This document shows, one piece after another, positions 57,150 to 59,585 of a DNA stretch of 64,000 nucleotides. The stretch is taken from IMG/VR virus record IMGVR_UViG_2654587772_000002, one strand, 5' to 3'. The position numbers and the translations under genes are program-made. The notes beneath the pieces were generated by a model. The model had not been told where the DNA came from, searched no databases, and saw nothing but the letters and a program-made list of their open reading frames with translations. The first letter of the stretch is position 1. Every line of letters begins with the position of its first letter. Origin of the DNA: a virus (taxonomy: Duplodnaviria; Heunggongvirae; Uroviricota; Caudoviricetes).

Positions 57150-57572
57150 TCAATGCACTACGACAGAATCGCTAGGAGAACCGCCGCCGCTGAAATGCGC
57201 TTTCCGGTAAACGGCTTGGACTGCATCATCATGCGCATCAATTGCCGTACTTAACGCTTCCTGCGCCGCCAGTAATGCACGGCGTTCCAGGGTATCGAAG
57301 ATGCAGAGTCGGTGACGCAGCTCGCGCGGAAGGATTGCCAGAATTGCTGGGATCAGCTTCTGAATTTTTTCCCTTTGCGCATTCGTTTCACCTTTCAACC
57401 AACGGTGATAGATATTCTGCTGATTGTTCCAGTCCTTGCCTGGAACCAGGGGCAATTCGCCGCCCCCCTGGCGCAGATATTCTTCAGTAATTGCATTGGC
57501 TACCCATGCCTGCCTTTTTTCGGCTGCCAGGGCAAACAACACCGATTCGATGTGCTCATGCTTGATTTTCAT
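57150..57572 (-). CDS. ydaT: YdaT-like regulatory protein (CII-position gene), 140 aa
   Basis: Position second in the rightward early operon after the Cro-like gene. Size equals Rac YdaT as recalled. Confidence 0.6.
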   Translation of the reverse strand: MKIKHEHIESVLFALAAEKRQAWVANAITEEYLRQGGGELPLVPGKDWNNQQNIYHRWLKGETNAQREKIQKLIPAILAILPRELRHRLCIFDTLERRALLAAQEALSTAIDAHDDAVQAVYRKAHFSGGGSPSDSVVVH

Positions 57573-57594
57573 GAATCATTTGCCTCTTGATGTT

Positions 57595-57891
57595 TCAGGT
57601 ATGATCAAATGAGGATTTGTTACTGTCATTTAGTTGCTTCACTGACATATTCTGCGAACAACATGCCGAACGTCGTAAATATGACCAGTCAATATCAGGA
57701 CGAAGTTCTTCGCACAGCACCTCACCTCTTGTTGCACGTTCAATTGCTGGACATCTCTCGGCAGGCAATTGACGTACCCCTTTGATCCATTGATTTACGC
57801 TTGGAGGTGATACACCTAAAAGCCTAGCCATTGCTGTTTGCCCACCGACAACAGCACAAGCTTGCTTGAATGAATAGTTCTCTTTTTTCAT
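57595..57891 (-). CDS. ydaS: Cro-like HTH regulator (YdaS-like), 98 aa
   Basis: HTH QTAMARLLGVSPPSVNQWIKG. Divergent from the repressor gene across an operator-rich 123-bp intergenic region. Confidence 0.75.
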   Translation of the reverse strand: MKKENYSFKQACAVVGGQTAMARLLGVSPPSVNQWIKGVRQLPAERCPAIERATRGEVLCEELRPDIDWSYLRRSACCSQNMSVKQLNDSNKSSFDHT

Positions 57892-57917
57892 CGAATGAAC
57901 TCCAAAAACACACAGAG

Positions 57918-57987
57918 ATATTAGGCGACGCCTAATACAAATGTCAATAGGCTATGCCTAATACAATGAGAGTAGGGATTGCCTAAT
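57918..57987. promoter_or_regulatory. OR-like operator array: three 17-bp sites of the form ATTAGGC-N3-GCCTAAT spaced about 25 bp apart, overlapping a divergent TTGACA/TAATAT promoter (approximate positions)
   Basis: ATTAGGCgacGCCTAAT (perfect), AATAGGCtatGCCTAAT, AGTAGGGattGCCTAAT. On the minus strand TTGACA-18-TAATAT faces the Cro-like gene. Confidence 0.6.
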
Positions 57988-58014
57988 GCAATGAGCATAG
58001 GAGAATATTAAGCA

Positions 58015-58491
58015 ATGCTTAGTGGTAAAGACTTAGGCCGAGCGATAGAGCAGGCCATTAACAAAAAAATCGCATCGGGATCCGTCAAATCAAAGGCGGA
58101 GGTCGCACGCCACTTCAAAGTCCAACCACCATCAATCTATGACTGGATTAAGAAAGGCTCCATAAGTAAAGATAAACTTCCAGAATTATGGCGTTTCTTT
58201 GCTGATGTTGTTGGTCCAGAGCATTGGGGGCTTAACGAATACCCCATACCAACCCCCACCAATCCAGATACAAAAAGTGAACTTTTAGATATAAACAACC
58301 TTTATCAAGCAGCCTCTGATGAAATAAGAGCGATTGTAGCTTTCCTGTTATCTGGAAATGCTACAGAACCAGATTGGGTTGACCACGATGTTCGCGCCTA
58401 CATAGCAGCGATGGAAATGAAAGTGGGTAAGTATCTGAAAGCTCTAGAATCTGAACGGAAAAGCCAGAACATCACAAAAACTGGAACTTAA
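58015..58491 (+). CDS. racR: Prophage repressor (RacR-like, cI-position), 158 aa
   Basis: N-terminal HTH (KSKAEVARHFKVQPPSIYDWIKKG). Divergent from the Cro-like gene. Size equals Rac RacR as recalled. Confidence 0.75.
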   Translation: MLSGKDLGRAIEQAINKKIASGSVKSKAEVARHFKVQPPSIYDWIKKGSISKDKLPELWRFFADVVGPEHWGLNEYPIPTPTNPDTKSELLDINNLYQAASDEIRAIVAFLLSGNATEPDWVDHDVRAYIAAMEMKVGKYLKALESERKSQNITKTGT

Positions 58492-58564
58492 ACTTATATG
58501 GTCTGACGGAAAACTCCTGGATTCCGTTATTTAACCCCCCCATCACTTTCTCCAGTCGCCATCA

Positions 58565-58631
58565 CCTATTAGGTTACGCTTAAAACATTAGGCATAGCCT
58601 ATTGACAATCAATTAGGCATTACCTATAGTT
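58565..58631 (+). promoter_or_regulatory. OL-like operator half-sites overlapping a near-consensus plus-strand promoter (TTGACA-17-TATAGT) downstream of the repressor gene (approximate positions)
   Basis: ATTAGGCatAGCCTATT and AATTAGGCATT elements share the ATTAGGC half-site seen in the OR-like array. TTGACAatcaattaggcattaccTATAGT. Confidence 0.5.
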
Positions 58632-58799
58632 CCAGCATACCACCCACCCCGCCCCACAGAACGCCAGGCAATACTTCGAGTTACCAGGTAGTGGTCAGGG
58701 GTTAAGTAGCCAGCCCGAGGCGTATGAACATGACGGCGGGATTCAAATTTTGCAGTGCAGCAGTTAGTTCCGCCACCCGGCGTTAAGGGGATAGATAAG

Positions 58800-58934
58800 A
58801 TGGTGCATTACGAAGTAGTTCAGTATTTGATGGATTGTTGCGGTATCACTTACAACCAGGCTGTGCAGGCTTTACGCAGCAACGACTGGGATCTCTGGCA
58901 GGCAGAAGTCGCTATACGTAGCAACAAGATGTGA
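58800..58934 (+). CDS. Small protein, 44 aa (YdaG-sized)
   Basis: My own translation (MVHYEVVQYLMDCCGITYNQAVQALRSNDWDLWQAEVAIRSNKM); RBS AAGGGG. Below the ORF-track size cutoff. Confidence 0.45.
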   Translation: MVHYEVVQYLMDCCGITYNQAVQALRSNDWDLWQAEVAIRSNKM

Positions 58935-58944
58935 GATTCGCAAA

Positions 58945-59100
58945 ATGCAAAAAATCGACCTCGGCAACAACGAATCCCTGGTGTGCGGCGTGTTCCCCAA
59001 CCAGGATGGAACGTTCACTGCCATGACGTATACCAAAAGCAAAACATTTAAAACCGAAACTGGTGCGCGCCGATGGTTGGAGAAGCACACAGTAAGCTAA
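58945..59100 (+). CDS. Small protein, 51 aa (YdaF-sized)
   Basis: My own translation (MQKIDLGNNESLVCGVFPNQDGTFTAMTYTKSKTFKTETGARRWLEKHTVS). Below the ORF-track size cutoff. Confidence 0.45.
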   Translation: MQKIDLGNNESLVCGVFPNQDGTFTAMTYTKSKTFKTETGARRWLEKHTVS

Positions 59101-59585
59101 CGATTAAAACGTCTACTCCTGCTGTTCCAGAATAACTTCATAAAATGGGAGTATTTTTCGGTGACGAGATAATAAGAACAGTTTGCGCTATCACTCTGAT
59201 GTTGAATGATGCCCTTCCGTTCTAATTTTTTCATAACCGGGTTACGGCAAGGAGAAGTGATAATAAGATTTCCTGTTTTAAGGAAATCTTTAAATACAGC
59301 GATTTCTTTCTCAGATAAACGAAGCAATACTCGTTGCTCTGGTAGTAATGAATAATGCTTTTGAATATGTGCTCGCAATCTTGAGAAGGAAATGGCGACC
59401 ACGAAAGAAAAGGCAAAAACGATAATCTGAAAGAGCCAAGGTATTTCAGTATAAGCATTGAATGCGACAGTAAACTCTTTCGGTATCAGCCAGAGAGTGA
59501 GACCAAAAATGATAATCGTATACATAAGTCTTTCGAGTGGCTCGTTAGCAAAAAGTTTCAACAATGGAGTAAATACATCCAACAT
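59097..59585 (-). CDS. sieB: Two-TM membrane protein, SieB-like superinfection exclusion protein (162 aa from the internal Met)
   Basis: Start set at Met42 by codon arithmetic. TM segments YTIIIFGLTLWLI and WLFQIIVFAFSFVVAISF. Opposite orientation to its neighbours, as sieB is in Rac. Size matches. Confidence 0.55.
   Translation of the reverse strand: MLDVFTPLLKLFANEPLERLMYTIIIFGLTLWLIPKEFTVAFNAYTEIPWLFQIIVFAFSFVVAISFSRLRAHIQKHYSLLPEQRVLLRLSEKEIAVFKDFLKTGNLIITSPCRNPVMKKLERKGIIQHQSDSANCSYYLVTEKYSHFMKLFWNSRSRRFNR

What the first reader, a model, noticed from the sequence alone, without database searches (positions are those of the whole stretch)
57892..58640. Operator arrays of ATTAGGC-N3-GCCTAAT palindromes on both sides of the repressor gene, overlapping near-consensus promoters
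Between the divergent Cro-like and repressor genes there are three 17-bp sites (one perfect) spaced about 25 bp apart, overlapping a minus-strand TTGACA-18-TAATAT promoter. Just downstream of the repressor gene, half-sites of the same sequence overlap a plus-strand TTGACA-17-TATAGT promoter facing the early-left genes. This is an OR/OL-like layout in which OL follows the repressor gene directly.
Basis: seen in the sequence. Interest (0 to 1): 0.45.

Follow-up and report, generated by a model that had tools for sequence, protein, structure and literature searches.

The report
Rac prophage repressor operators, OR and OL
The repeated palindromes on both sides of the Rac prophage repressor gene racR are its binding sites over the two early promoters: the right-hand set is already published, and the left-hand set looks like a real, ordinary, undescribed counterpart.

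Summary
The window is the immunity region of a Rac-type prophage of E. coli ST2747 (ydaT-ydaS <- -> racR -> ydaG-ydaF...kilR...recE), 97.9% identical to K-12 Rac.

Seven of the eight matches to ATTAGGC-N3-GCCTAAT (3 mismatches or fewer) in 64 kb flank racR. Two full sites plus one half-site lie downstream.

Each array overlaps a strong sigma-70 promoter in the same way. One site ends inside the -35 TTGACA, and the next site supplies the -10. The two cassettes are inverted copies of each other.

The right array is already known from K-12 work. The ATTAGGC motif, the inverted-repeat operators and PydaS were mapped by EMSA, DNase I footprinting and primer extension (PMC5700373, PMC9638921).

I found no description of the left array (OL/PL) for Rac. 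It is conserved in 77 of 80 distinct RacR loci and in relatives from other genera. In relatives that carry inserted cargo genes it sits further downstream, after those genes. It ends a few bases before the predicted transcription start, where homology to phages of other immunity begins. Published RacR-depletion transcriptomes show 40-70-fold induction of the genes downstream.

Verdict: a lambda-like OR/OL layout, ordinary in kind. OL is a modest new annotation, and RacR binding there is untested.

The parts
57562..57579 (-). YdaT-box (ATGATTCATGAAAATCAA) over the ydaT start codon. Context only, not part of the RacR operators.
   Evidence: Sequence read. It is identical to the box footprinted in K-12 (PMC11879457).
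57595..57891 (-). ydaS, the Cro-like regulator and first gene of the rightward (PR-type) operon ydaS-ydaT.
   Evidence: ORF. Pfam YdaS_toxin 2.9e-31 and P22_Cro 3.6e-9. RefSeq annotation.
57918..57947 (-). PydaS (PR equivalent): -35 TTGACA at 57947..57942, 18-bp spacer, -10 TAATAT at 57923..57918.
   Evidence: 10/12 match. The same promoter was mapped by primer extension and -10 mutagenesis in K-12 (PMC9638921).
57920..57936 (.). OR site at -95 from the racR ATG: ATTAGGCGACGCCTAAT, a perfect palindrome. It covers the spacer and -10 of PydaS.
   Evidence: 0 mismatches. Half-sites are invariant and the N3 spacer is variable in 42 unique sequences.
57946..57962 (.). OR site at -69: AATAGGCTATGCCTAAT. 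Its end overlaps the -35 of PydaS by 2 bp.
   Evidence: 1 mismatch. Together with the -35 it forms a 21-bp perfect inverted repeat with 58587-58607 (I1).
57971..57987 (.). OR site at -44: AGTAGGGATTGCCTAAT. It overlaps the inferred -35 region of the leaderless racR promoter PracR3.
   Evidence: 2 mismatches. It is orthologous to the -43 site of other genera.
58001..58006 (+). GAGAAT, the -10 of the published leaderless racR promoter PracR3 (PRM equivalent).
   Evidence: Sequence read. Promoter defined in K-12 (PMC9638921).
58007..58023 (.). OR site at -8: ATTAAGCAATGCTTAGT, over the racR start codon. This is the published O3, a likely autorepression site.
   Evidence: 3 mismatches. All 17 columns are invariant. 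Described in PMC9638921.
58015..58491 (+). racR, the 158-aa repressor. It has a conserved N-terminal helix-turn-helix domain (about residues 1-73), a variable linker and a helical C-terminal domain.
58568..58584 (.). OL3 candidate: ATTAGGTTACGCTTAAA. Only the left half (58568-74) is conserved, and it lies 19 bp from OL2.
   Evidence: 3 mismatches. Variation pattern. Absent from most distant relatives.
58587..58603 (.). OL2: ATTAGGCATAGCCTATT. Its last 2 bp are the first 2 bp of the PL -35.
   Evidence: 1 mismatch. Half-sites invariant, spacer variable. Present in relatives from other genera.
58602..58630 (+). PL-type promoter facing ydaG-ydaF...kilR...recE: TTGACA, 17-bp spacer, TATAGT.
   Evidence: 11/12 match. 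It is the only 11/12 match in the 64 kb. Conserved in 77 of 80 distinct loci.
58612..58628 (.). OL1: ATTAGGCATTACCTATA. It covers the spacer, and its right half-site forms the first 4 bp of the -10.
   Evidence: 3 mismatches. 0-2 mismatches in Proteus, Morganella, Mixta, Yersinia, Pectobacterium and phage KpF5, where the -10 is TAATAT.
58637..58799 (+). Leader of the leftward operon. Homology to phages of other immunity types begins at about 58639, a few bases after the -10 and within a few bases of the inferred start site.
   Evidence: No RNA family or structure signal.

Best explanation
This is the immunity switch of a Rac-type lambdoid prophage. RacR dimers recognise the 17-bp inverted repeat ATTAGGC-N3-GCCTAAT.

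Two inverted copies of one operator-promoter cassette flank racR. In each cassette the distal site ends inside the -35 (GCCTA-TTGACA). The proximal site, 25-26 bp away, supplies the -10 (GCC-TAATAT or ACC-TATAGT). Bound repressor therefore occludes both hexamers.

The right cassette is PydaS (the PR equivalent) and drives the Cro-like ydaS and the CII-like ydaT. Two further upstream sites, at -44 and over the racR ATG, overlap the racR promoters and give autoregulation.

The left cassette is a PL equivalent directly after racR. It drives ydaG-ydaF-kilR-ydaE-racC-recE-recT and the excision genes. Loss of RacR therefore derepresses both arms at once.

What is shown: the sequence anatomy, its conservation, and (published, for K-12) RacR binding and repression at the right cassette.

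What is inferred: RacR binding at OL1/OL2, PL activity with a start near 58634-58637, cooperative binding of adjacent dimers, and possible OR-OL bridging across about 0.64-0.69 kb.
For: Clustering of sites and promoters.

The cassette regex hits once per strand in the window, at 58587 (+) and 57962 (-). It is present at PL in 77 of 80 distinct RacR loci and at PR in 77 of 80.

Relatives with only 56-62% identical RacR keep the same motif upstream at -68/-43/-8, and a pair 25 bp apart around TTGACA downstream. These are Mixta, Morganella, Proteus, Yersinia, Pectobacterium and Klebsiella phage KpF5. So do repressors that share only the N-terminal domain fused to Peptidase_S24.

Footprint-like substitution pattern: 8 of 96 half-site or promoter-hexamer columns vary, against 66 of 172 other intergenic columns (Fisher p = 3e-8). 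The central N3 spacers and the linkers vary.

Mosaic junction: phage Tritos has a different repressor, operators and PL-like promoter. It becomes homologous a few bases after the -10.

Literature. RacR EMSA, ChIP-qPCR and DNase I footprints on the racR-ydaS region, and PydaS mapping (PMC5700373, PMC9638921). ydaG, ydaF, kilR, ydaE and racC rise 40-70-fold when racR expression is lowered by C protein (PMC6765115, PMC11014345). ydaG, kilR, ydaE, racC, recE, recT, ralR, xisR and intR rise together with ydaS/ydaT after racR CRISPRi (bioRxiv 10.64898/2026.09.06.749655). In both cases racR transcription falls, so the induction cannot be read-through from the racR promoters.
Against: No experiment shows RacR on the downstream sites. 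The published probes span -186 to +85 relative to the racR start, so they exclude OL.

OL1 has 3 mismatches here, and OL3 is only a half-site.

Three relatives show no OL pair within the DNA fetched: Klebsiella L011, Salmonella L100 and Citrobacter L104.

An older study attributes kil silencing to Rho-dependent termination of the racR transcript (PMC4150792).

Most E. coli loci are closely related, so the 77/80 count is not 77 independent observations.

The oligomeric state of RacR is unknown, so looping is speculation.
Confidence: 0.85

Rival explanations
1. The leftward genes are controlled mainly by read-through from the racR promoters, held in check by the Rho-dependent terminator trac inside racR. 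On this view the downstream palindromes and promoter-like sequence are vestigial.
For: Shashni et al. 2014 place a Rho-dependent terminator in racR and link its failure to kil-dependent lethality (PMC4150792). The leader starts with a C-rich, G-poor stretch.
Against: ydaG, ydaF and kilR rise 40-70-fold exactly when racR transcription is reduced or blocked by C protein or dCas9. PL is the best sigma-70 match in 64 kb. The cassette is conserved across genera, and in relatives with inserted cargo genes it lies after those genes. The two mechanisms can coexist.
Confidence: 0.07
2. The downstream array is a non-functional by-product of recombination or gene conversion with the upstream array, that is, an inverted duplicate of the PR cassette.
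For: A 21-bp perfect inverted repeat lies between 57942-62 and 58587-607. E. coli Rac-type OR carries one more 26-bp unit than other genera.
Against: The pair is present in distant genera with different spacer and linker sequences but intact half-sites, -35 and -10. Substitutions avoid the half-sites. The cassette sits at the boundary of the immunity module.
Confidence: 0.05
3. The palindromes are bound chiefly by the Cro-like YdaS or by another factor, rather than by RacR.
For: In the related CP-933P switch, repressor and YdaS footprints overlap (PMC8630535). YdaS and OxyR are reported to have sites in the Rac intergenic region (PMC11879457).
Against: RacR footprints coincide with these repeats in K-12. 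The motif tracks the RacR N-terminal domain even when the C-terminal domain is swapped. Shared use by YdaS is likely and does not conflict with the main explanation.
Confidence: 0.03

Closest known systems
Rac prophage racR-ydaS intergenic operators of E. coli K-12 (Krishnamurthi et al. 2017, PMC5700373; NAR 2022, PMC9638921)
   Same: It is the same element: 97.9% identical DNA. It has the same ATTAGGC half-site, the same (T/A)TAGGC-N3-GCCTA(T/A) inverted repeats, the same PydaS TTGACA/TAATAT, and the same site over the racR ATG.
   Different: The published work stops at +85 of racR and does not describe the array or promoter downstream of racR. This strain also differs at a few spacer and linker bases. 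For example, the K-12 PracR2 -10 AGTAAG reads AATGAG here.
Bacteriophage lambda OR/OL with PR, PRM and PL
   Same: Divergent repressor and cro genes. Multipartite palindromic 17-bp operators spaced about 2.4 helical turns apart that overlap the -35 and -10. A leaderless repressor mRNA. A second operator set over a leftward early promoter.
   Different: RacR has no Peptidase_S24 autocleavage domain. OR has four sites and OL has two plus a half-site, rather than three and three. OL is about 0.65 kb from OR rather than 2.4 kb, with no rexAB-type genes between. YdaS reportedly does not repress racR. Lambda facts are from established knowledge.
CP-933P paaR2 switch with PR933P, PRM933P and PL933P/OL1-3 (Jurenas et al. 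2021, PMC8630535)
   Same: A Rac-like cryptic prophage with a ydaS-ydaT operon. [quoted passage not shown]
   Different: The operator sequence is different (consensus GTTTAGTAA palindromes). A toxin-antitoxin pair lies between the repressor and OL. There PL was tested with reporters; here it was not.
Qin prophage dicA-dicBp (PMC10448788)
   Same: The repressor gene is followed immediately by the repressed promoter of the early-left operon. The leader and first gene downstream are homologous to those in Tritos-type phages carrying dicF-dicB.
   Different: The repressor family and the operators are different.

Membership tests
Lambdoid immunity region (repressor/Cro switch with OR and OL) | Divergent repressor and Cro-like genes separated by a multipartite operator that overlaps divergent promoters | tested here: met
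   YdaS hits P22_Cro. Four sites lie in the 123-bp intergenic region and overlap PydaS and the racR promoter region.
Lambdoid immunity region (repressor/Cro switch with OR and OL) | A second operator set overlapping a leftward early promoter (OL/PL) | tested here: met
   Met at sequence level only; two full sites and a half-site over a TTGACA-17-TATAGT promoter facing ydaG...recE. Promoter activity is not testable with these tools.
Lambdoid immunity region (repressor/Cro switch with OR and OL) | Operators travel with the repressor's DNA-binding domain (immunity specificity) and end at the module boundary | tested here: met
   the same motif occurs with 56-75% identical DNA-binding domains, including S24 fusions; a phage with a different repressor has different operators and shares sequence only from the start site onward.
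Lambdoid immunity region (repressor/Cro switch with OR and OL) | The repressor physically binds the operators and represses both promoters | not testable with these tools
   Published for the right array in K-12. Untested for the left array. Published transcriptomes are consistent with it.
Lambdoid immunity region (repressor/Cro switch with OR and OL) | Three operator sites at each of OR and OL | tested here: not met
   OR has four sites in E. coli Rac-type loci and three in other genera. OL has two full sites plus a conserved half-site. This is a variation in number, not in principle.
Lambda CI / LexA-type repressor protein family | C-terminal Peptidase_S24 autocleavage domain | tested here: not met
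   Pfam gives only a sub-threshold HTH_17 hit for RacR. The model shows a three-helix C-terminal domain. Homologs with the same N-terminal domain do carry S24.
Lambda CI / LexA-type repressor protein family | Lambda-repressor-like (XRE) helix-turn-helix DNA-binding fold | tested here: inconclusive
   Foldseek's best hits for the N-terminal domain are HipB, ClgR, lambda cI NTD and Cro-type proteins, but all have E of 0.24 or higher. There is no PDB sequence match.
Published RacR operator (O1-O3) | Inverted repeat (T/A)TAGGC-N3-GCCTA(T/A) | tested here: met
   All upstream sites and OL2 fit with 0-3 mismatches to the strict 14-base consensus. OL1 deviates in its right half (ACCTATA).
Long-range OL-OR repressor looping (lambda CI octamer) | Higher-order oligomerisation of repressor bound at both operators | not testable with these tools
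   The paired sites are 641-692 bp apart centre to centre. I found no data on RacR oligomeric state in the NAR 2022 paper searched for this.

The most novel reading that the evidence does not exclude
RacR bound at the two inverted cassettes bridges OR and OL into a minimal loop of about 0.65 kb that encloses only its own gene. On this reading the two cassettes are kept alike by gene conversion, which would explain the 21/21 identity of the -35 plus the adjacent operator. The DNA-binding domain and both cassettes would form a portable immunity module that has been joined to at least two different sensor domains: the RacR-type helical domain and an SOS-cleavable S24 domain.
Probability: 0.3. Interest if true: 0.4.

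Novelty: new member of a known kind. Interest (0 to 1): 0.25.

Why it matters
Rac is carried by a large share of E. coli genomes. racR is essential in K-12 because its loss releases toxic prophage genes.

The 2023 literature states that the RacR regulon is not characterised in detail. A mapped OL/PL would give the missing cis element for RacR control of kilR, recET and the excision genes. It would also explain why both prophage arms are induced together.

The prediction is simple to test with existing K-12 strains and purified RacR. It does not change how phage switches are understood.

Tried and rejected
- Rfam scan of 57400-59300 at E up to 1 gave only a chance tmRNA fragment.
- Folding the PL leader gave z = -0.59. 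An RNAalifold run on 19 variants gave no compensatory pairs. I found no evidence for a nut- or put-like RNA.
- Folding the hairpin after racR gave z = -0.87 with a short T run, so it is not a convincing intrinsic terminator.
- A PDB sequence search for RacR found nothing.
- The Foldseek search of the AlphaFold model gave only non-significant XRE-type hits and nothing for the C-terminal domain.
- Literature searches for a Rac OL/PL, for sbcA with racR, for RacR ChIP-exo, and for the motif string found no description of the downstream array. The supplement of the key paper is not held. Subscription-only papers from the 1980s-90s on sbcA and kil could not be searched.
- The idea that 'OL directly after the repressor gene' is distinctive was rejected. 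Qin has it, and RacR relatives with cargo genes do not.

Full report
**What the locus is.** The 1.2 kb around the finding is 100% identical to the chromosome of E. coli ST2747 and 97.9% identical to the Rac prophage of K-12 strains. The RefSeq annotation and the ORF list agree on the gene order:
- ydaT (57150-57572, minus strand)
- ydaS (57595-57891, minus strand)
- racR (58015-58491, plus strand)
- a ydaG-like gene, ydaF, sieB (opposite strand), kilR, ydaE, a racC-like gene (annotated hypothetical in this strain), recE and recT

Pfam identifies YdaS as YdaS_toxin/P22_Cro and YdaT as YdaT_toxin. RacR gets only a sub-threshold HTH hit. An induced phage, vB_EcoS-683R6, carries a 99.8% identical immunity region.

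**Check of the observation.** The strict pattern ATTAGGC-N3-GCCTAAT with up to 3 mismatches occurs 8 times in 64 kb, against 2.83 expected from shuffles.
- Seven of the eight hits flank racR. Upstream: 57920-36 (perfect), 57946-62, 57971-87 and 58007-23. Downstream: 58568-84, 58587-603 and 58612-28.
- All six exact ATTAGGC heptamers of the window are in these arrays.
- The consensus scan finds TTGACA-18-TAATAT on the minus strand (57947..57918) and TTGACA-17-TATAGT on the plus strand (58602-58630).
- The plus-strand promoter is the only 11/12 match in the whole window.

**Anatomy.** Both promoters are built the same way.
- PL, plus strand: ATTAGGCATAGCCTA-TTGACA-ATCA-ATTAGGCATTACC-TATAGT.
- PydaS, minus strand: ATTAGGCATAGCCTA-TTGACA-TTTGT-ATTAGGCGTCGCC-TAATAT.

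The distal operator ends two bases into the -35. The right half-site of the proximal operator supplies the first four bases of the -10. The 25/26-bp site spacing follows from the 17/18-bp promoter spacer. The -35 plus distal operator are 21/21 identical at the two promoters, in inverted orientation. A regex for this cassette hits exactly once per strand in 64 kb.

Upstream, two more sites lie at -44 and -8 from the racR ATG. They sit over the region of the published racR promoters, including the leaderless PracR3, whose -10 GAGAAT is at 58001-06.

**What is already known.** The right-hand half of the finding has been published for K-12.
- Krishnamurthi et al. noted the GCCTAA/TTAGGC repeats. 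They showed three RacR-DNA complexes by EMSA, and ChIP enrichment (PMC5700373).
- The 2022 NAR paper mapped PydaS (TTGACA/TAATAT) and three racR promoters by primer extension and mutagenesis. It footprinted RacR with DNase I, derived the ATTAGGC monomer motif, and named three inverted-repeat operators (T/A)TAGGC-N3-GCCTA(T/A), with O3 over the ATG (PMC9638921).
- The 2025 paper added the YdaT-box and a PRE-like promoter. The box is present here at 57562-57579.

None of these papers treats DNA downstream of racR. The probes end at +85. A 2023 paper says the RacR regulon is not characterised in detail and calls ydaFG an operon of unknown function. My searches for an OL/PL of Rac found nothing. 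Older subscription literature could not be searched.

**Evidence that the left array is functional.**

1. *Conservation with the repressor.* Of 80 distinct RacR loci from genome and viral collections, 77 carry the PL cassette and 77 carry the PR cassette. These loci are mostly close relatives, so the distant ones matter more.
   - Mixta, Morganella, Proteus, Yersinia, Pectobacterium and Klebsiella phage KpF5 have RacR only 56-62% identical. They keep sites at -68/-43/-8 and a downstream pair 25 bp apart around TTGAC(A/T), with -10 TAATAT.
   - Repressors in Pigmentiphaga, Achromobacter, Pectobacterium and one further genome share only the N-terminal domain, fused to Peptidase_S24. They have the same upstream sites and a downstream pair.
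   - Where cargo genes sit after the repressor gene, the pair lies 0.76-1.4 kb further on, in front of the early-left genes. OL therefore belongs to the promoter and not to the racR stop codon.
   - Three loci lack a detectable pair within the fetched DNA: Klebsiella L011, Salmonella L100 and Citrobacter L104. At least two of these look like remnants or carry cargo.

2. *Substitution pattern.* This was measured in 42-43 unique E. coli-type sequences. Only 8 of 96 half-site or promoter-hexamer columns vary, against 66 of 172 other intergenic columns (Fisher p = 3e-8). The central N3 and the -35/operator linker vary freely.

3. *Module boundary.* Phage Tritos has a different CI, different palindromes and its own TTTACA-17-CATTAT promoter at the same place. 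Homology to the window begins a few bases after the -10, near the predicted start. Matching this, the leader is found in 3450 of 5426 complete E. coli genomes, but the whole immunity region in only 1085.

4. *Published expression data.* ydaG, ydaF, kilR, ydaE and racC rise 40-70-fold when C protein lowers racR expression. ydaG, kilR, ydaE, racC, recE, recT, ralR, xisR and intR rise with ydaS/ydaT after racR CRISPRi. In both cases racR transcription is reduced or blocked. Read-through from the racR promoters therefore cannot be the source, and a RacR-repressed promoter downstream of racR can.

**Mechanism proposed.** RacR dimers occupy the two sites of each cassette and exclude RNA polymerase from the -35 and -10. 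The site over the ATG, and the -44 site, feed back on racR itself. Depletion of RacR opens PydaS and PL together.

Cooperative binding between neighbouring dimers, and bridging of the two cassettes (centres 641-692 bp apart), are inferences by analogy. I found no data on RacR oligomerisation in the 2022 NAR paper.

The AlphaFold model (mean pLDDT 82) shows a five-helix N-terminal domain, a disordered linker (about residues 74-83) and a three-helix C-terminal domain. Foldseek hits to XRE/lambda-cI-type domains are not significant. The N-terminal domain is far more conserved than the rest across 36 homologs. That fits the conserved half-site.

**Rivals.**
- Rho-dependent termination inside racR (trac) has been proposed to keep kil silent. 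It may add a layer, but it does not explain induction when racR transcription falls.
- A non-functional inverted duplicate is contradicted by cross-genus conservation and by the substitution pattern.
- Binding by YdaS is likely in addition to RacR, not instead of it.

**Comparison and novelty.** The layout works like lambda OR/OL, and like the tested PL933P/OL of CP-933P and Qin dicA-dicBp. RacR is not a member of the CI/LexA S24 family. Site numbers differ from lambda: four at OR, and two plus a half at OL.

The right array is already known. The left array is a new member of a known kind, pending a binding test. I set interest at 0.25: it is a useful annotation for a much-studied prophage and would not surprise a specialist.

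Noticed in passing
window 58637-58799: The leader downstream of PL is shared by prophages and phages with other repressors (Tritos; 3450 of 5426 E. coli genomes). It starts with a C-rich, G-poor run. There is no Rfam hit, no unusual stability and no compensatory pairs, so the reason for its conservation is unexplained.
   Followed up: partly
window 58730-58786; L097 2591-2827; L003 2600-2836: From the ATG at 58730 the leader reads MTAGF... In Tritos and O157-type loci this frame runs without a stop into the DUF1391 (YdaF-like) gene. In Rac it stops after 18 codons, and ydaG lies between the leader and ydaF. The 3' half of the 'leader' may therefore be former coding sequence or a leader peptide.
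   Followed up: partly
L013 2501-3406, L014 2501-3598, L099 3001-3708, L103 3001-3708: The RacR N-terminal DNA-binding domain occurs fused to a Peptidase_S24 (LexA/CI-type) domain, with the same operators at -68/-43/-8 and a downstream OL/PL pair. The same immunity specificity is thus joined to a different induction route.
   Followed up: partly
window 57914-57989 compared with L009-L014 and L098-L104: E. coli Rac-type OR has four sites (-95, -69, -44, -8), whereas other genera have three (-68, -43, -8). One 26-bp operator unit appears to have been added. Its -35 plus operator is 21/21 identical to the OL2 unit, which suggests exchange between the two arrays.
   Followed up: partly
window 58504-58529: A hairpin (8-bp stem, 58504-11 / 58522-29) lies just after the racR stop and is followed by only TTT. 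Some stem positions change together in three diverged loci by eye, but the fold is not significant (z = -0.87). It is a possible weak terminator between racR and OL.
   Followed up: partly
window 57562-57579 (minus strand): The published YdaT-box ATGATTCATGAAAATCAA over the ydaT start codon is present unchanged in this strain.
   Followed up: no
window 57963-57970 compared with L002: The -10 of the published K-12 promoter PracR2 (AGTAAG) reads AATGAG in this strain, so that minor racR promoter may differ between strains.
   Followed up: no
L098 (Klebsiella phage KpF5), L099, L103: Cargo genes lie between the repressor gene and OL in some relatives: an HSDR_N/DUF450 protein in one, and small unknown ORFs in the others. 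This is the position occupied by rexAB in lambda.
   Followed up: no
L008 (JARKOR010000130.1): A 5.2-kb contig labelled as a Candidatus Nanosynbacter MAG carries a 99% identical RacR locus. This is almost certainly an E. coli contig mis-binned into the MAG.
   Followed up: no
window 58033-58039: A single CTTAGGC half-site lies inside racR about 20 bp after the start codon, as noted in the 2022 paper. It is invariant in the aligned sequences, but it is also coding sequence.
   Followed up: no
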